A stretch of 63,542 bases of DNA, filler included, from Rhabdomonas costata (Eukaryota), in the NCBI GenBank assembly GCA_019059605.1. It is 55 parts of 55 records of this genome, joined end to end, with 100 filler letters (N's around TTAATTAATTAA, not from the genome) between each part and the next. Parts side by side here need not be neighbours in the genome. Positions count along the whole stretch, not along the records: positions 42,817 to 43,873 come from JAHMHO010030946.1; 54 more parts are not named here. One strand, given 5' to 3'. The position numbers were made by a program, and so were the translations under genes. Positions 15,808 to 48,195 of this stretch are shown one piece after another (the first letter of the stretch is position 1; the number at the start of each line of letters is the position of its first letter). The notes beneath the pieces were generated by a model. It was not told where the DNA came from. It ran no database searches and saw nothing but the letters and a program-made list of their open reading frames with translations.

Positions 15808-16112
15808 GTGGGCTGCCTGGCCCCGTTCGGCGTGAGTTGGGTGTGTCACTACGTCGTGGGTGCTGTGTGTGTGTTACCCACCAGGAAAGCGGGTCTAAGC
15901 CCGTAGTGGGATGGAGGACCCAAACCCAGAAGGGCAATAGTGCCCAAAGGGAAGTGTACGAGCGCGGAAGGTTGGGTACCCACAAAGAGATCTCTAAACG
16001 CGCCAATCGGGGTTCCCAAGGCCCCGCGTACACTGTGGATCGGGGGTCACATTGGGTAAACCAACCCTACGTGACAAGACAGCGGGACAAAGTACCATGG
16101 GCTTACAAGGGT
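15808..16112 (+). ncRNA. Candidate structured RNA element, copy A (truncated by contig end)
   Basis: Shares ACGAGCGCGGAAGGTTGGGTACCCA (25 nt) and CCCGCGTACACTGTGGATCGGG (22 nt) exactly with 43073-43152. The flanking stems are conserved in structure but not in sequence. Confidence 0.55.
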
Positions 16113-16212: not shown

Positions 16213-16720
16213 TCGTTCCCAAGCTCCTGCCTGTAAACCCGCAAAGACTCCTCATAAAGCGGCTCCGCGGCAGCGTACTTCCCTTGGTCTCCGTACAGAA
16301 GCGCAAGATTGATCAGGCTTTTCGCGACATCGGGATGGTCGTTCCCAAGCTCCTGCCTGAGAATCCGCAGCGCCTCCTCATAAAGTGGCTCCGCGCCAGC
16401 GTACTTCCCTTGCTCACGGTACAGAAGAGCAAGATTGTTCAGGCTGGCCGCGACATCGGGATGGTCGTTCCCAAGCTGCTGCCTGCGAATCCGCAACGCC
16501 TCCTCAAAAAGCGGCTCCGCGGCAGCGTACTTCCCTTGGTCACGGTACAGATTCGCAAGGTTGTTCAGGCTGGACGCGACAGCGGGATGGTCGTTCCCAA
16601 GCTGCTGCCTGAGAATCCGCAACGCCTCCTCATAAAGCGGCTCCGCGGCACCGTACTTCCCTTGGCCGCAGTACAGATTCGCAAGATTGTTCAGGCTTTG
16701 GGCGACAGATTGATGCTCCT
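16213..16720 (-). repeat. 126-nt tandem repeat encoding the TPR units
   Basis: The tcgttcccaagct motif recurs four times at about 126-nt spacing between 16213 and about 16591. Confidence 0.95.
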
Positions 16721-17270
16721 CACCAAACGTGCGCTTCTCGTCTTCGAGGCGATTCTGGATGATCTCCTGCGCCTCTTCGAGGCTCCCCCCATCAAGAAAA
16801 TAATCTCCAGCCATGCTCCAGAACTCGTCAACAGCCTCAATCTCCACCACGCACATCCGCTGACCACCATTCTCAACCACACCACGCGTGTTCACAAGTT
16901 CACTCAGCTCCCCAATGCTCATCCAATGCTGACGCGTCACCCGGAACTGCTGCCCCATCGGGAACAAAACTTCCTCCTCCTCGGGATACATCGACAGATG
17001 GGCGATTCTTGCCGCACAGCATCGGGGATTCTCCGGGTTGCGGATGGTGATCAATAAAACAGTATTTGCTTCGAACTCAGGTATCAAGGTCAGCATTCGC
17101 TCCGCTGAAGTCGTGCACGACACGAACCCTTCCATCGAGAAGACGTTGCGATCAATATCCTTCTGCGGAGTATACTGGGCCTGCTGCTCTGGGCTCAGCT
17201 TCAGGGTGCGGTAGCAGGTCGAGCAGTGAGGTTGCCTTTCGGTCAGCCTCCGCAGCGCGCTCTGAAGTAC
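16213..17270 (-). CDS. R-S-E class ADP-ribosyltransferase domain fused to 42-aa TPR repeats (kinesin-light-chain/NPHP3 type); partial at both ends
   Basis: The whole contig is one stop-free frame: TCYRTL (R), GFVSCTTS (STS), MYPEEEEVLFP (ExE), then four SLNNLA.LY..QGKY..AEPLYEEAL repeats. Confidence 0.9.
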
Positions 17271-19084: not shown

Positions 19085-19338
19085 GGACTGACGGGCGCAC
19101 GCGCTGTTGGCCACGGGAGCTCGAGAGAGGTGCCTTTGGAGCGAACGACGCCGTGGGGTACCGGCTCAACGCTAAACGTCCCACACACGGTGACCTCCCT
19201 TCAGCCCCACAGGTCCCGGGCCTTTGTCAGGCAGATACTTTTCTCCAAAATACCCGCGCTGCTCCATTGCTGCTCGGGCCTTTGAGACTCCGTCCTCCTT
19301 AGGGGGGGGGATTTCTCTCGCGGAAACGCTTTCCTTAG
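19085..19338 (-). repeat. Dispersed repeat family B, copy 1 (retroelement-like 3' end)
   Basis: Aligns in reverse complement with 47884-48153 (e.g. gcgcacgcgctgttggcca, cctcccttcagcccca, gctccattgc). A second short copy of gagcgaacggtgccgtggggtaccgg lies at about 18593-18619. Confidence 0.8.
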
Positions 19339-19435
19339 GTTGAGTGCATGGGCAGCAACGTTATCTAGTGGCGTTGCCGTGCCAGTACATTACTCTATGT
19401 TTGCATTGCGGCCTCTTCCTTTCGTCAAGCCACAC

Positions 19436-32313: not shown

Positions 32314-34050
32314 NNNNNNNNNNNNNNNNNNNNNNNNNNNNNNNNNNNNNNNNNNNNTTAATTAATTAANNNNNNNNNNNNNNNNNNNNNNNNNNNNNNN
32401 NNNNNNNNNNNNNCCAGCGATTCTTGCGACAATCGGGAAGGACTTAGATGTGGGTTGGTCTTACTCTTTATGTTCTTCATTGCTTTTTTTGCCATCAAAA
32501 GGCAGAGATTATGTTTAATGAAGAGGTGATAAAGTGAACTATACCCTTAACGTTCGTTTCCCTGACAAAAGAGGTTCGTATGTCATCTTATTGCAGTTCG
32601 TTATTATTTCGTGTTGGTCAACGGGTGGGCAGCTGATCGAGAATTAATAAGGAGGGGGGGGATTAAGAATAGAAACCAGTTCTATCGTCCGGGATTATCT
32701 CTTATCTTGCAGTTTTTCATAGCAGCGACAGCGATGATGGAGCTCAAGGAGCCAACAAATCATTCTATTAATTGTGTGGGGGGGTCAGGAAGTTGCTGTC
32801 CATTCCGTTGGATTCACCCACAACGGCAGAATGTTATTTTCCGACGGGCATGCAATTTAAGAGGTGCTGAAAGCGTAAAGTTGTCGACAAAAAAGGAAAT
32901 GAGGGAGAACGGTTATATACAATGTGCTTCGGCCATCTGCTGAGTGGGGCGTGTTGTCGCAGAAGACACCAGCTACAGTAAAAAAAAAGCCCCCGACATC
33001 TTCAATTCCTGTGACAACTCAGCATGACAAGCATTTCCTGTCAATGAGTGGAATTTGACCAAAAGATGACTAAAATAATTCGAACTGGGTTTTCTGTCTC
33101 TGCTGACTCGAAAAAAATGCACTCGTATGAGTGGTGGGCATCGAACAGGGGAACAGGGGGTAATGATGCAATAGTTCGACAACCCCAGGGCAGATCTCGG
33201 CCTCGACTGTTGGTTCGGTTGCGATGGAGGTGTCCAGGGACAAGGCTGTTCGGAAGTGAGGAGGCCAGCGAAACTGAGAAGCCCATGTTGACGAAGAGTA
33301 TGATTGCCCCCCAAAATCCAAACCAAAAAAGTATGTTTGTCCTGGAAAATGGGGCGACACCGAAATCGTCAACCTGCAAGCACGGGAGACCTTCAGGGAG
33401 ATAGCCACGCCTCCGAACTGTTCCCAGCCGGACAATGTGTGTCTGCTCCCAACATCTCTTCACCAACACANNNNNNNNNNNNNNNNNNNNNNNNNNNNNN
33501 NNNNNNNNNNNNNNTTAATTAATTAANNNNNNNNNNNNNNNNNNNNNNNNNNNNNNNNNNNNNNNNNNNNGGGGGTGTGTGGACCCGACCTCCTGCGCCA
33601 CCACTCATTTCCACATTCCTCACCCAAAGAGAGAAAGGGAGAGAGAGATGGATAAATTTGGCTCTGGTGGACCTAACCTCCACATATTCCTCACTCTAAG
33701 TTGCTGAAGTGGACGGGCGCTTTTTGACCTGCGGCCCCTTGCACAGCCCTCCACACCTCTTGCATGCTCCGCATACCGCTGCTCTTTCATTTGGCGTAAC
33801 GCATAGTCTGCTTCCTTTCATCGCATCTGGTGACTTGTGAATGACACGTTTTGATTCAAATCAGGCGTTTTTCAAACGTCAGTCTGCAATCGCATCTGCA
33901 TCCCGTGGCCTTTTTCTGTAATATCCTCAGTTTCTCAGCCCATTACCGCAGATCCCTACAAAACTCTGACCAAAGATTCAACAGCCTGCTCTCCACCCAT
34001 GCTATTTTGCTCCTGCTTGGACGTCATTGGTTGCTTTCCGGACATTCCAG

Positions 34051-34282
34051 GCCTGGGCCTACGCCAGCTTCCGGGTCCACAACCCCGCTATTTTCGAGGC
34101 GCTGGCCGTTCGCGCGGCCGATCCTCGGGTGCTGGCAGGTTTCACGGCCAGCCAGCTGAGCAACCTGGCGTGGGCCTTCGCCAGCCTAGGGGTCGGTAAC
34201 CGCACTCTGATGGCCTCCCTGGGAGACCGCGCGTTGGCCCCAGAGGTGCTGTCGGCATTCCAGCCCACCGAGCTGGCCAACG
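34051..34282 (+). CDS. Exon of an OPR/RAP-family helical-repeat RNA-binding protein
   Basis: AWAYASF...LAGFTASQLSNLAWAFASLG...LSAFQPTELAN contains the F.pq.LsN.aWAfA.L repeat signature, with CAG/GTATGG boundaries. Confidence 0.85.
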
Positions 34283-35149
34283 GTATGGATTTGGGAAAAG
34301 CAGCGCTGGGGCGGGGAGGTAGGGGAGCCGTTGAGTGCTTCTCTGCATTTCCAGAACCGTGGGGTGTGGGGATAGTTAGATGGAATGTTTCCGGGACACA
34401 GCAGCGTTGGTTTTTCCCGCGCAGCACATGGGTTCCAGCGACAGGTCCTCTGGGCGCGTCCATTTGCGGTGGACAGGAATTTGGTATCCGGCCATTGTAT
34501 GACTTCCGCGGACCCACCGCGACTTCACCGATCGGTGTCGAAGCAGGTCAGACTCATGCATTCTGCTGCATTGCACCGCAATGCTCCACGCAAAACTGTT
34601 AATAAGATTGCCCCCGCCCCAACACCCNNNNNNNNNNNNNNNNNNNNNNNNNNNNNNNNNNNNNNNNNNNNTTAATTAATTAANNNNNNNNNNNNNNNNN
34701 NNNNNNNNNNNNNNNNNNNNNNNNNNNTGTGGTTGGGCATGTAAGGAACAAGCTATGCCTCGATGGGATCGATGGCCATGGGGGCGTTTTCACCTCCGCT
34801 CTTCTTTGCGTGCGCGCTTCCAGCAAAAGAGCGGAAGTTCGTGGGCACGGTCCACCTACATAAAAGGAGCTTCCTGGTCATATTCCGTTTCATAATCTAC
34901 CTGCATGGGTGGTTCTCCAGGTCTCTGTGGTTTGGGCTGGTGTGGTTGGGCTGAATGGACCGCGGCGGCGGCGTGGGGCTGTGGGCTGCTGCTGCTGCTG
35001 CTGACGCTGTCTGGAAGGGCTCCTGGGGCTCTCGCTGCGGGTGTTGGATTGGAGTGTGTGGAACGCGGGACCACAAAGAAGAAACCGTATTCCGCAGGCG
35101 GCCTGCAATGATGGCGCTGGCTTTGTCAGCTCGTGACCTGGTTTGCCTT

Positions 35150-42628: not shown

Positions 42629-43010
42629 CTGCGAGAAAACAGTCAGTGAGGGGACCCAACCACGCCCACCACGCCCACAGCACACCTTCCTCAGCGACCC
42701 CCAACCACCCAACACANNNNNNNNNNNNNNNNNNNNNNNNNNNNNNNNNNNNNNNNNNNNTTAATTAATTAANNNNNNNNNNNNNNNNNNNNNNNNNNNN
42801 NNNNNNNNNNNNNNNNGGGTTTGGTGACCTTCGCGAAAAGGGCTGCTGTAGTCAGTGCATGCGGCGTTGGGGGGGGGGGCACGCATGCGGCCCATATGCC
42901 GTCTCACGACAAACCCCCCTCTGGGTTCCGGCCTCCGTGAGGGCTCAACCTTACCTCGCGGGTGTTGGGGTACCCCACTTTGCTTGCCCTTTCGCGGACT
43001 GCCCCCATTC

Positions 43011-43303
43011 TGGGCTACTCTGGCCTCCCTACTCCGGCACGTTGAGTTCACCTCGGTGCCTTGGAGAGCCCAACGAGCGCGGAAGGTTGGGTACCCAGAT
43101 CGAAAAATGGGCCTGTCGGGTTCTCAAGGTCCCGCGTACACTGTGGATCGGGTCACGGGAAGGGCGAACCCCACGTGACAACAGAGAGGGACAACCACCG
43201 TGGACCGACAAGGTCCACGGGGTGAGGTGAGGCCCGATGGGCCCATGCCACATCCAAAGTCAGTAGCCCAAGTGGAAGGGGAAGAGGACCTCGAGTCTTC
43301 CCC
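43011..43303 (+). ncRNA. Candidate structured RNA element, copy B (apparently complete), followed by (GT)n
   Basis: Closing stem tgggctact (43011-19) / agtagccca (43262-70), several internal hairpins, and loop cgcgg (43078-82) complementary to ccgcg (43132-36). Homologous to 15808-16112. Confidence 0.55.
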
Positions 43304-44877
43304 AGAAAAAGGTCATCATTGCCGTTTGCACAAAGTGTGTGTGTGTGTGTGTGTGACCACGGTCGTGGCGTTTCCGTGGTCAGAAGCAGATGGCCGGAGA
43401 GTCCCAGGCAGAAAGAAGAGCAAAGAACAGAACCTAGCCCCGGGGATTAACCGAAATTCCGATGCGAGTATGTGGGTGTGTGTCCAAGACGCAATGCATA
43501 TGTCCTTATGTGGTTGTCTGTTGTCATTCTGTGTTGGTTGTTGTTGTTGGTGGTGGTGATGGTTGGCTGGGTGATGTTGTGGTTTTGGAAATGAATGGGG
43601 TACAGGTTCAGCAGCAGCTGGACGCCGTCATGGCCCGCCGGCCTGCCTCCTACAGGACCTCCGCACGGGGGCGGCCCGATACGAGCTGAGTTTCTGCCCC
43701 GTGTGGTGGGTTTCTATCCTCTTCTTCTTCTTGTCGTGTGTCTTTCCCCGCATGGCCCGACGGTCCCGCCTGCCCCCCTTCACTGGCTCCAAACCTTGCA
43801 CTTCTTTGCCCCTCCCGCCATGGATTGAAGAGAAGGAAGAAAGCAGGCGCTGTCTCTTTTGCCTTCGCTGCCGNNNNNNNNNNNNNNNNNNNNNNNNNNN
43901 NNNNNNNNNNNNNNNNNTTAATTAATTAANNNNNNNNNNNNNNNNNNNNNNNNNNNNNNNNNNNNNNNNNNNNTTGTGGCTTTTACTTCGGCAACCTCAC
44001 CGTGCTCTCAGACTGCTTCGTGAGGCCCGTGGTGGTGGTGCCGATCTCCTCCCGAGGTGCACCCACCAATGCCCCTACAAGACCTGACTCACCAAAAGTT
44101 GCAGGCGAGTGGGTGGGGGGACGGGCAAAGAGACGGGCACCACCCTTGTGTGGTATCCAAGCCTTTTTCTTCTCAACACAAGGGTGGCCTTGGTTGCCTG
44201 ACCTCGAAGCAAGAGCTAACCTGGACCCGCCGCAAAGCACACTCTCCCCAGCTTCATCTCTGCTGGAGCTGCCCGACACCTCCTTCCCGGCAAAAGACAA
44301 ATGTCGGAGCTACGTGACCTGCCACTTCCAGCATCAGTCTAAAACTTGGGGGGGGGGGGTGCGAAGCTTACTACGTTCAATTCACTACGTATTGCATTCG
44401 TGCCACCGGCTGGGTGGAAAAACACCTCACAGCAAGCGCAACCTCAATGCAAGGCCAAAAATGACGAAATTTTTTTTTTGGCGAAAACAGTATAAAAAGA
44501 TCACTCACCAATCTTCTCCACCGCACTTGGGGAAACATTGTAATCATTTTTTCGGTGTAAATCTCTTCCTCTCGGAAGGTCCGGCAGCCTTCGGCTTCCA
44601 ATGTTTGCAACCCGAAAGGGTTCCTTTTTCTTACCATCCCCAGTACTTCCTACAAAGAAAAGCACCTCGTCCCAAGTATTGCTTTGCGGTCTGGCGCCAT
44701 TTTTTTTGGACTGGGAGTGCCCCTGCTGCCACATTGTCCTCTTCTCGATTCTCGATTTCGGTGCAACCTTCATCCAACTTCTCGTCGTTCTGCGAGGGCG
44801 AAAGTGAAGCCTGCTATGCCATTTTGTTGACCGCGTGGTGCCGGGAGGCGCTCGCTTCACTTGCACGCCGCTCAGTG

Positions 44878-46490: not shown

Positions 46491-47761
46491 TCCAACTGTG
46501 CATGACCCCCATTGGGTGCCATCAGGCAAATGTTTACTTTTGGCTGTTCAACGTTGTTAAACGTTTAACACGAATTTTTTCTGTTTGGGGGAAGTTATAT
46601 TCCGGGCACGGGGGTTGGGTATAGTGTGCATATTGATGATGTTTTTGTTTTCCGAAAACGGGTTAGGTAAAAGGGGTTATGTGTTTCTCTGCCCAATAGA
46701 TGCCGAGTTTGAAGTTTTTGAACTGTTTAACACTGTTAAACGTTTAGCCCCCACTCCTCCAAAAATAGTGGCCGCTGAATTGGTACCGGACCCGTTTTAC
46801 GTTTTTAAATCTCTGTCGCAGTACACCTCTTGTGCGCTGAGTCGTGGGTTTGTTGCCAAGTACTGGGAAATCGAGGGCCCCACGTTTCGGTGAATACTCC
46901 TGGACTCCAGGATGGCACCCGTGGCCTATCAAACCCATACAAGGCGAGACATGATTTTTCTTCACAGTATTAGCACTCTGTTCGGGCACGGCGTGACTTT
47001 TTTTTTGCTCGTCATAAACCTCAGTGGGGATGACCAGGGCAAGGGGGGGATCTACACCCGCTTCGCCGGAACCTCTGCTAACCAAAACCCAAAGTATCTC
47101 TAGAAGTATCCATTACTCCACAAAAACTCGAAGAAAAAATGCGAGTTTTCAAAATTTTCGAAAACATCGAAACAGTCGAGTTTTTCTCGAAAATTCTCGA
47201 TTTTTGTGTGCTCACCTAGCTGGCGCTTAAGCGGCAAGTCAGTTGGCGCCTGAGTTGGACCCGTTGGGTCCGTTCCGCCCTCCTACCCCTCACTCCCGTC
47301 TCCACCCGCTTCCCTCTATATAATATAGGCTATATTTTTAATAGGNNNNNNNNNNNNNNNNNNNNNNNNNNNNNNNNNNNNNNNNNNNNTTAATTAATTA
47401 ANNNNNNNNNNNNNNNNNNNNNNNNNNNNNNNNNNNNNNNNNNNNTTTTTGTGATGACATGGTGTCACATTTCTCTCCTCGAAAATAATTATGTCCGAAT
47501 TGCGAAGAGAGGGACCCTTCAACTGAGGGGAACGGAAGGCTGGGGCACCAACTGGTACGCCACGCTACGAGACACAGAGCCCATGCTGACCTTCAGCATG
47601 GTAGAGCCGCAGCTTGGCAAGCCCGCAATGAGGGACCCAAGCAGGGGCCTTGTTCGGGGGTTACCCAGTGGAGGCCAGTAGGCGACGTTCCCCGATTGCC
47701 CTTGGTGGTCCGCATCCACACACCACACACACAGACACACCACACACACAGATACTGCGCA

Positions 47762-48195
47762 ACAAAGGCCCGGGACCCGTGGGGCTGAAGGGAGGTTACC
47801 AGATGTGGAACGTTCGGCGGTGAGGTGCTGGCACGGCGACGCTTGTAGATACCGGTGCAGCCCTTTCACCCATCCGAAGAAAAGCTCCAAGGGGCGTTCC
47901 CATGAGAAAAGGTTCCAGCCCCCCAAGGAAGGAGGGTTGAATCGCAATGACCTGAGCCGCAATGGAGCAATGTAGGTAGCCGCTGGAAAAGAGCAGCTGC
48001 GCGAAAAAAAACCCGGGACCCATGGGGCTGAAGGGAGGTTACCAGATGTGGAACGTTCGGTTGTGAGCCGGTTTCGGTTCCCCACGGCACCGTTCGCTTC
48101 AACGGCACCTCTCGCGAGCACCATTGGCCAACAGCGCGTGCGCCAGTCAGTCCACAGTGGTCACAAACAACCAAGCAACCAGGCAACCAGGCAAC
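47762..48195 (+). repeat. Dispersed repeat family B, copy 2, with partial tandem duplication and (CAACCAGG)n tail
   Basis: 47884-48153 is homologous to 19085-19338. The segment ggggctgaagggaggttaccagatgtggaacgttcgg occurs twice (about 47781 and 48024). The tail is caaccaagcaaccaggcaaccaggcaac. Confidence 0.8.

What the first reader, a model, noticed from the sequence alone, without database searches (positions are those of the whole stretch)
43011..43303. Dispersed element that looks like a conserved, pseudoknotted structured RNA (best candidate for an undescribed system)
Seen: two unrelated contigs (here and 15808-16112) share invariant blocks ACGAGCGCGGAAGGTTGGGTACCCA and CCCGCGTACACTGTGGATCGGG, while the sequence between them diverges but keeps its stems. 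The stem before TGGAG..CCCAA is GGCAC/GTGCC here and CCCAC/GTGGG in the other copy, a double compensatory change. GTCAC/GTGAC closes different inner hairpins in the two copies. CCCAAC/GTTGGG presents the loop GAGCGCGGAAG, whose CGCGG can pair with the invariant CCGCG about 50 nt downstream (pseudoknot). A 9-bp stem (43011-19/43262-70) closes the domain. A hairpin (GGGGAAGA/TCTTCCCC) and a (GT)n tract follow. G-U wobbles favour the + strand. Inference: selection is acting on RNA structure, as in a ribozyme-like or promoter/IRES module of a non-LTR retroelement or SINE. From memory only and unverified, the motif string resembles 5' UTRs of animal I/Nimb-clade retrotransposons. It lacks hammerhead, HDV and group II domain V cores.
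Basis: partly seen in the sequence, partly recalled or inferred. Interest (0 to 1): 0.78.

Follow-up and report, generated by a model that had tools for sequence, protein, structure and literature searches.

The report
Two-copy non-coding repeat, structure unproven
Two short contigs of a fragmented eukaryote-like assembly share a roughly 150-base non-coding repeat with two perfectly conserved blocks, but two copies are too few to show that it is a structured RNA.

Summary
The window is a chain of 55 contigs of about 1 kb. No whole genome, reads or earlier notes were available.

**What is real.** Two contigs share a non-coding core, 43073-43213 and 15958-16110. It has 117 identical columns of 154. 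It includes an exact 25-mer and an exact 22-mer. Runs that long are unexpected under even decay (P about 6e-5).

**What it is not.**
- It is not protein-coding.
- It matches no Rfam family or tRNA.
- It was not found in the metagenome, prokaryote or viral collections, nor in paper text.

**The structure claim is undecided.**
- Against: the shared core folds no better than shuffles (z -0.38 to +0.85).
- Against: 0 of 32 consensus pairs change on both sides.
- Against: the 9-bp closing stem is at chance level.
- Against: the low energy of the 293-nt interval is the same on both strands.
- For: the consensus fold beats column shuffles on the + strand only (z -2.0 and -2.3).
- For: the upstream hairpin with two flipped pairs is rare in control pairs (1 of 3000, a test defined post hoc). 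The homology of that flank is not significant.

Best reading: an unclassified short interspersed repeat.

The parts
43073..43213 (+). Copy A, the demonstrably shared core of the repeat
   Evidence: The local alignment to copy B has 154 columns: 117 identical, 23 mismatched, 14 gapped. BLAST gives 76% identity, E 4e-22.
15958..16110 (+). Copy B, shared core, cut at the 3' side by the contig end at 16112
43073..43097 (+). Invariant block 1 (25 nt) in copy A. The same block lies at 15958-15982 in copy B.
   Evidence: 2 exact matches in the window, 0 expected from shuffles.
43131..43152 (+). Invariant block 2 (22 nt) in copy A. The same block lies at 16023-16044 in copy B.
   Evidence: 2 exact matches in the window, 0 expected from shuffles.
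43077..43137 (+). Predicted consensus hairpin (15962-16029 in B). It pairs GCGCGG with CCGCGU (G-U at the base), UUGGG with CYCAA, and ACCC with GGGU, around a variable apical region of 21 nt (A) or 28 nt (B).
   Evidence: RNAalifold on the + strand and pair counts. The hairpin is no more stable than shuffles: z +0.33 and +0.39.
43036..43073 (+). Upstream hairpin GGCAC/GTGCC followed by TGGAG..CCCAA in copy A. The counterpart CCCAC/GTGGG + TGGAG..CCCAA lies at 15877-15923 in copy B.
   Evidence: Coordinates. An 18-nt patch is 13 of 18 identical, and MAFFT with cheap gaps aligns it. The configuration is rare in controls, but flank homology is not significant.
15924..15957 (+). 34-nt stretch present only in copy B, between CCCAA and block 1. 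It holds its own small palindrome (GGGCA..TGCCC).
   Evidence: Read. Shown as a 35-column gap.
43198..43220 (+). 9-bp hairpin CCGTGGACC/GGTCCACGG at the end of the shared core. Copy B ends inside its counterpart.
43278..43303 (+). 8-bp hairpin GGGGAAGA/TCTTCCCC, seen in copy A only
43335..43355 (+). (GT)10 microsatellite downstream of copy A. It could be an element tail or an unrelated repeat.
43011..43019 (+). 5' arm of the 9-bp inverted repeat TGGGCTACT. The 3' arm lies at 43262-43270.
   Evidence: Such repeats occur at chance frequency in the window's contigs.

Best explanation
It is a short, non-coding interspersed repeat of a repeat-rich, eukaryote-like genome. Most likely it is a non-autonomous (SINE-like) element, or a fragment of a larger mobile element, copied to at least two places.

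**Shown**
- There are two diverged copies on separate contigs.
- Sequence similarity starts sharply at block 1.
- There is no shared reading frame.
- Two invariant blocks of 25 and 22 nt sit in a core that is otherwise about 75% identical.

**Inferred**
- The invariant blocks are cis-acting sites that the element needs to be transcribed or copied, for example an internal promoter or a recognition site for the copying enzyme.
- They are read on the + strand. There, GCGCGG in block 1 and CCGCGU in block 2 can close a hairpin of about 60-70 nt whose tip is free to vary.
- Whether that hairpin forms or matters is not shown.
For: - Two copies and no more appear among the 55 contigs: all-against-all BLAST, and nhmmer --max, where the next best hit has E = 1.
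- The blocks are exact and the identical runs are longer than even decay predicts (6 of 100000 permutations).
- It is non-coding. Block spacing differs by 7 nt, so frames shift between the copies. 0 of 10 ORFs on the two contigs reach a Pfam cut-off. The word-index search found no relative. The 4 hits of the exhaustive search are internally repetitive proteins matched in 5-14 weak stretches.
- In the first 72 alignment columns, 14 of 16 variable or gapped columns fall in the predicted apical region. One is a G-U/G-C change in a helix and one lies in an internal loop.
- The consensus fold is favoured on the + strand only.
- The surrounding sequence looks like repeat-rich, gene-poor eukaryote DNA. 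Only 19 stop-to-stop frames of at least 180 aa occur in the window. Microsatellites and a second dispersed repeat are present.
Against: - No element ends, target-site duplication, poly(A) or RT-type tail can be defined. Copy B is cut by its contig end, and the (GT)10 tract lies about 120 nt beyond the last comparable base.
- ARAGORN found no tRNA. Rfam gave no tRNA, 7SL or 5S match even at E up to 10 on either copy. By my own reading, the blocks fit the Pol III A and B box consensus (recalled, not taken from any call) at only about 5-6 of 9 specified positions.
- No RT, ORF1 or transposase lies nearby.
- Two copies would also fit an old segmental duplication.
- Copy number in the genome is unknown.
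Confidence: 0.45

Rival explanations
1. It is a conserved structured RNA read from the + strand, either a stand-alone multicopy RNA gene or the RNA module of a retroelement (processing, ribozyme-like, promoter or IRES-like). The upstream hairpin, the block 1/block 2 helix and the GUCAC/GUGAC hairpin would be kept by selection.
For: - The + strand consensus fold gives z -2.00 (12 of 500 shuffles as low). The extended alignment gives z -2.28 (5 of 300). The - strand gives +0.31 and -0.13.
- The structure conservation index is 0.68 on the + strand and 0.49 on the - strand.
- 3 of 3 one-sided changes in helices preserve pairing as G-U on the + strand.
- Indels fall in predicted loops, and the B-only 34-nt insert is itself a small palindrome.
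- The upstream 5-bp stem with two flipped pairs, next to a shared TGGAG..CCCAA patch, recurs in 1 of 3000 control pairs under the strict definition.
Against: - The shared core folds no better than dinucleotide shuffles: z +0.85 and +0.11 on the + strand, +0.44 and -0.38 on the - strand. The hairpin module gives +0.33 and +0.39.
- The separately folded copies adopt different minimum-energy structures.
- 29 of 32 consensus pairs never vary and 0 change on both sides.
- Column shuffling does not keep dinucleotides, so its z-scores are generous.
- The control for the upstream stem was defined after seeing it. It rises to 34 of 1200 and 452 of 1200 under looser definitions.
- Upstream homology is not significant.
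- No Rfam family matches. By my own reading, the HDV-like layout fails: no G-G follows the 3' strand of the would-be P1 to form P1.1.
Confidence: 0.25
2. It is an old segmental or paralogous duplication of non-coding DNA, such as a shared UTR, intron or promoter piece of a gene family, and not a mobile element. The invariant blocks would be regulatory protein-binding sites or patches of gene conversion.
For: - Only two copies are seen.
- No transposon hallmarks are present.
- Conservation is uneven, as in regulatory DNA.
- A degenerate block-1-like 19-mer (79% identical) lies 121 nt upstream in contig A (family D2).
Against: - Similarity is confined to about 150 nt, and the flanks are unrelated on the side that can be compared.
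- No recognisable gene lies on either contig.
- Two hits in 58 kb of sampled sequence would, by extrapolation, suggest many copies genome-wide. That is inference only, and small contigs are enriched in repeats.
Confidence: 0.17
3. It is a miniature inverted-repeat DNA transposon. TGGGCTACT / AGTAGCCCA (43011-43019 / 43262-43270) would be its terminal inverted repeats, and the folding would be a DNA-level palindrome.
For: - The 293-nt interval folds equally well on both strands (z -3.54 and -3.51).
- Copy B has a similar left-end patch (TGGGCTGCC at 15809).
- Contig A is one of 3 of 55 contigs with three or more 8-bp local hairpins.
Against: - A 9-bp inverted repeat within 300 nt is expected by chance: mean 1.8 per contig.
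- No target-site duplication flanks the putative ends (read).
- The right end of copy B is not available.
- The consensus fold is strand-specific, which a DNA palindrome would not be.
Confidence: 0.08

Closest known systems
SINEs and other short non-autonomous retroposons, including families that share a conserved central domain under different heads (CORE-, V- and Deu-SINE types; recalled, not from a call)
   Same: It is short, non-coding and dispersed. A sharply bounded conserved segment sits next to unrelated or barely related upstream sequence. Two short invariant blocks lie about 58-65 nt apart start to start. A simple-repeat tract lies downstream in copy A.
   Different: No tRNA, 7SL or 5S relationship was found. 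The A and B boxes fit poorly by my own reading against a recalled consensus. No defined tail or target-site duplication is seen, and the copy number is unknown.
Pr77 / L1TcRz, the 77-nt 5' module of trypanosomatid L1Tc/ingi retroposons that is both an internal promoter and an HDV-like ribozyme. For PMC3383444, PMC3185411 and PMC1874656 I saw the search listing and abstract starts. For PMC4035085 I read passages.
   Different: No Pr77 sequence was printed in the passages read, so no sequence comparison was made. No Rfam family of any kind, ribozymes included, matched either copy at E up to 10. By my own reading the HDV-like topology is not met. No retroposon ORF or poly(A) lies downstream. Low ORF density argues against a trypanosomatid source.
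3' stem-loop plus simple-repeat tail of stringent-type LINEs and their partner SINEs (for example eel UnaL2; recalled, not from a call)
   Same: Conserved hairpin-forming sequence is followed by a microsatellite, (GT)10 in copy A. Copies that begin at different 5' points would share only their 3' parts.
   Different: The best-conserved blocks lie at the 5' edge of the similarity and not next to the tail. About 120 nt of copy-A-only sequence separates the core from (GT)10. The tail of copy B is off-contig.
MITEs and hairpin-forming DNA transposon relics
   Same: It is small and dispersed, rich in palindromes, and copy A folds equally on both strands.
   Different: The 9-bp terminal repeat is at chance level and there is no target-site duplication.

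Membership tests
Any described RNA family (Rfam 15) | Covariance-model match at or above the family's gathering score | tested here: not met
   There were 0 matches in the whole window at gathering score. At E up to 10, only hits far below gathering appeared: KCNQ1OT1_2, sR28, SOX2OT_exon2 and PyrR208, with E from 1.4 to 9.4. Only the PyrR208 hit (11.8 bits against 64, E 9.4) overlaps the shared core.
HDV-like self-cleaving ribozyme | Nested double pseudoknot: P1 starting at the cleavage site, a 3-bp P3 with a short L3, P1.1 between L3 and the bases after P1, and P2 closing the fold | tested here: not met
   No Rfam HDV-type hit. By my own reading, GCGCGG/CCGCGU could serve as P1 with G-U at its base. 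However, 56-63 nt separate its strands, ACAC and not GG follows it, and the candidate P2 strand differs between the copies. No formal descriptor search was run.
Hammerhead and other small self-cleaving ribozymes | Conserved catalytic core recognised by the Rfam models | tested here: not met
   No hit at E up to 10 on either copy.
tRNA-derived SINE | tRNA-like head carrying Pol III A and B boxes | tested here: not met
   ARAGORN found 0 tRNAs in the window. No tRNA-model hit at E up to 10. Old heads can decay beyond detection, so this lowers the claim but does not exclude it.
SINE or non-autonomous retroposon in general | Many dispersed copies with defined ends, a 3' tail and target-site duplications | not testable with these tools
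   No genome or reads were available. Only two copies are known, and one is cut by a contig end.
5' UTR of an autonomous non-LTR retrotransposon | ORF1 and/or an RT-endonuclease ORF downstream on the same strand | tested here: not met
   Of the 10 ORFs tested on the two contigs, 4 lie in or overlap the 660 nt downstream of the core in contig A. None of the 10 reaches a Pfam cut-off. A truncated copy would also lack such an ORF.
Protein-coding exon | A shared open frame with indels in multiples of three and detectable protein relatives | tested here: not met
   Gap runs between the copies are not all multiples of three, and the block spacing differs by 7 nt. Block 1 and block 2 fall in different relative frames in A and B. 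No relatives were found.
MITE | Terminal inverted repeats flanked by a target-site duplication | tested here: inconclusive
   A 9-bp inverted repeat exists in copy A, but at chance frequency. No duplication is seen at its flanks. The right end of copy B is missing.

The most novel reading that the evidence does not exclude
The two copies sample an undescribed family of + strand structured RNA carried by a dispersed element. Its parts would be an upstream hairpin kept by two flipped base pairs, an optional inserted hairpin, and a hairpin of about 60-70 nt closed by the two invariant blocks with a G-U at its base. The module would act at the 5' edge of the element's transcript as a processing or promoter module, in a lineage where no such module is known.
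Probability: 0.12. Interest if true: 0.7.

Novelty: new member of a known kind. Interest (0 to 1): 0.3.

Why it matters
If the full genome holds many copies that covary, this would be a new structured RNA module of a mobile element in a poorly studied eukaryote. It would then be worth a cleavage or promoter assay.

As it stands, it is an unclassified repeat. Its main use is as a seed for repeat annotation of that assembly. It also illustrates that apparent compensatory changes between two copies cannot by themselves establish RNA structure.

Tried and rejected
- **More copies.** Exact-pattern scans with a 20-mer from block 1 gave 0 hits in metagenome contigs, genome contigs and viral contigs. 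A 19-mer from block 2 gave 2, 1 and 0 hits. The 3 loci match over only 20-33 nt and lie in bacterial-type contigs, so they are chance hits. A two-block gapped pattern gave 0 hits in viral contigs.
- **Own genome, sequencing runs, earlier findings.** None was available.
- **Paper text.** 15-mers from the blocks matched 0 papers. 12-14-mers matched 3 papers on unrelated topics, each holding a single 12- or 13-mer (listing only).
- **Protein route.** I translated the element to look for hidden coding or for copies inside predicted proteins. The word-index search found no candidate in the near-length band of 67-216 aa, and other lengths were not searched. The 4 hits of the exhaustive search are repeat proteins, which I judge spurious.
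- **Source organism.**
  - A recalled dinoflagellate spliced-leader motif gave 0 matches.
  - The ART part of the ART-TPR frame found no relative among longer proteins.
  - The atlas placed a FASTK/RESC6-like ORF among algal clusters (score 0.95).
  - The atlas placed the ART part of the ART-TPR frame nearest rotifer clusters (scores 0.80-0.84, leads only).
  - The source stays unidentified.
- **Trypanosomatid Pr77 idea.** This came from my own recall. The passages read print no sequence, so I dropped it.
- **PBS/LTR, RNase P/MRP, SRP, H/ACA and miRNA-precursor readings.** I considered each by eye and rejected it, because the supposed motifs are not shared by both copies or do not fit. No call tested them beyond Rfam.

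Full report
**Setting**

The window is not one locus. It is 55 contigs of 1048-1059 nt joined by N runs and a TTAATTAATTAA spacer, with GC from 0.41 to 0.59. No whole genome is held. Everything below therefore rests on the window and on public collections.

The DNA looks like gene-poor eukaryote sequence:
- Only 19 stop-to-stop frames of at least 180 aa occur in the window.
- Microsatellites are present.
- One contig holds an ART+TPR frame.
- One ORF is FASTK/RESC6-like by language-model features, nearest to algal clusters.

The source organism was not identified. A recalled dinoflagellate spliced-leader motif is absent.

**The observation**

The 25-mer and the 22-mer each occur exactly twice, at 43073/15958 and 43131/16023. 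None is expected by chance. All-against-all BLAST of the 55 contigs finds this pair at 76% over 154 nt, E 4e-22, and finds no third copy. A profile search with all filters off finds none either; the next hit has E = 1.

The best local alignment runs 43073-43213 against 15958-16110. It has 117 identical, 23 mismatched and 14 gapped columns. Copy B stops two bases later, at the end of its contig, so the 3' extent of the element is unknown.

Conservation is uneven. The two longest identical runs (24 and 22 columns) are equalled in 6 of 100000 permutations of the alignment columns.

**Where homology starts**

Upstream of block 1 the two contigs are not demonstrably related:
- A local alignment scores 24, against 23.3 +/- 3.5 for shuffles; 125 of 300 shuffles do as well or better.
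- A global alignment scores 62, against 55.9 +/- 8.9 for real-sequence controls; 64 of 265 do as well or better.
- Chain-type alignments with cheap gaps are matched by 78 to 386 of 1500 control pairs, depending on the scoring.

In both copies a perfect 5-bp stem ends one base before TGGAG-NN-CCCAA. The stem is GGCAC/GTGCC at 43036/43056 and CCCAC/GTGGG at 15877/15906. The 18-nt patch is 13 of 18 identical, and MAFFT with cheap gaps aligns it, placing a 35-column gap in copy A before block 1.

I asked how often unrelated contig pairs from the window show the same configuration:
- Strict definition: 1 of 3000 (one search shows the real pair passes it).
- 12-nt patch with 5-bp stems: 34 of 1200.
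- 4-bp stems with one difference: 452 of 1200.

These definitions were chosen after seeing the pattern, so the small numbers overstate the case. It is a lead, not a proven compensatory change.

**Not coding**

- Gap runs between the copies are not all multiples of three, and the spacing between the blocks differs by 7 nt. Block 1 and block 2 therefore sit in different relative frames in the two copies.
- Ten ORFs on the two contigs give no Pfam domain above cut-off.
- A translated frame found no word-sharing relative in the near-length band.
- The exhaustive search gave 4 hits at E up to 0.001. All are internally repetitive proteins matched in 5-14 weak stretches at 31-43% identity. I read these as summed chance matches.

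**Structure tests**

Its reverse complement folds equally well (-133.9 kcal/mol, z -3.51). Most of that stability comes from parts that cannot be compared with copy B:
- a 12-bp long-range helix whose 3' arm lies beyond the shared core;
- the 9-bp hairpin at 43198;
- the 8-bp hairpin at 43278;
- the 9-bp 'closing' pair.

The shared core on its own is no more stable than dinucleotide shuffles: z +0.85 (A) and +0.11 (B) on the + strand, +0.44 and -0.38 on the - strand. The first hairpin module gives z +0.33 and +0.39. The two copies also take different minimum-energy folds.

*Chance level of stems.* Perfect inverted repeats of at least 9 bp within 300 nt average 1.8 per contig, and 16 of 55 contigs have three or more. 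The closing stem therefore carries no weight. Local 8-bp hairpins are rarer: only 3 of 55 contigs, contig A among them, have three or more.

*Consensus fold.* On the + strand RNAalifold pairs GCGCGG of block 1 with CCGCGU of block 2. It then pairs UUGGG with CYCAA and ACCC with GGGU, around a variable tip. That stem is absent at the homologous position in copy B, which has GTGTAC there.

Of the 32 consensus pairs, 29 never vary, 3 vary on one side (G-C/G-U or U-A/U-G) and 0 vary on both sides. The structure was derived from these same sequences, so its 100% pairing is not evidence.

*Shuffled alignments.* The + strand consensus energy (-30.6) lies at z -2.00, with 12 of 500 shuffles as low. 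The - strand lies at z +0.31, with 302 of 500. The structure conservation index is 0.68 against 0.49. With the upstream patch included, the + strand gives z -2.28 (5 of 300) and the - strand gives -0.13 (129 of 300). Column shuffling does not preserve dinucleotides, so this is a generous test.

**Known families**

- Rfam 15 gives nothing at gathering score in the whole window. At E up to 10 on both copies it gives only noise.
- ARAGORN finds no tRNA.
- By my own reading the HDV-like layout is not met, and the blocks fit the Pol III A and B boxes poorly. Both consensus forms are recalled, not taken from any call.
- Block strings are absent from the searchable paper text.
- They are also absent from the three sequence collections, apart from three chance matches of 20-33 nt in bacterial-type contigs.
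- Dfam and Repbase could not be searched. Supplements of papers were closed and might hold repeat libraries.

**Verdict**

The repeat and its two invariant blocks are real and are not explained by chance, by coding or by any family I could test. The step from there to 'selection on RNA structure' is not established:
- The one apparent double compensatory change lies in a flank whose homology is unproven.
- The comparable part shows no two-sided change and no excess stability.
- A weak + strand-specific consensus signal keeps the idea alive.

I rate the readings as follows:
- An unclassified short interspersed repeat whose blocks are cis-acting sites: 0.45.
- A genuinely structured + strand RNA: 0.25.
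- An old non-coding duplication: 0.17.
- A MITE-like element: 0.08.

Collecting all copies from the full assembly and testing covariation would settle it.

Noticed in passing
window 16215-17270 (-): An open frame spans a whole contig. It holds a C-terminal part of an NAD:arginine ADP-ribosyltransferase domain (PF01129, E 4.9e-9) followed by four TPR_12 units. The TPR units are a 126-bp DNA tandem repeat (16213-16697, 89% matches). Atlas features place the ART part nearest clusters that are mostly from rotifers (scores 0.80-0.84, leads only).
   Followed up: partly
window 33973-34602 (+): A 209-aa frame has no Pfam hit. Its first 110 residues resemble FASTK/RESC6-type helical-repeat proteins by language-model features (score 0.95). 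The nearest clusters are mostly from green algae, haptophytes and diatoms.
   Followed up: partly
window 19085-19388 and 47825-48153 (opposite strands): A second dispersed repeat lies on two other contigs: 72% identity over 329 nt, E 2e-44, plus three shorter matching pieces. The 47519-48160 frame contains an internally repeated peptide. It is not classified.
   Followed up: no
window 42957-42975: A degenerate block-1-like 19-mer (79% identical to 43078-43096) lies 121 nt upstream of block 1 in contig A (family D2). Copy B has a loosely similar stretch, interrupted by (TG)n, about 108 nt upstream of its block 1 (read). This might be a decayed upstream half-copy, but it is not significant.
   Followed up: partly
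window 43354-43382: A third local hairpin (TGACCACGG/CCGTGGTCA) begins at the last bases of the (GT)10 tract. It shares the CCACGG/CCGTGG core with the hairpin at 43198-43220.
   Followed up: no
whole window: The window is an artificial chain of 55 contigs of nearly equal length (1048-1059 nt) joined by N runs and a TTAATTAATTAA spacer. Distances and synteny between contigs are therefore meaningless.
   Followed up: yes
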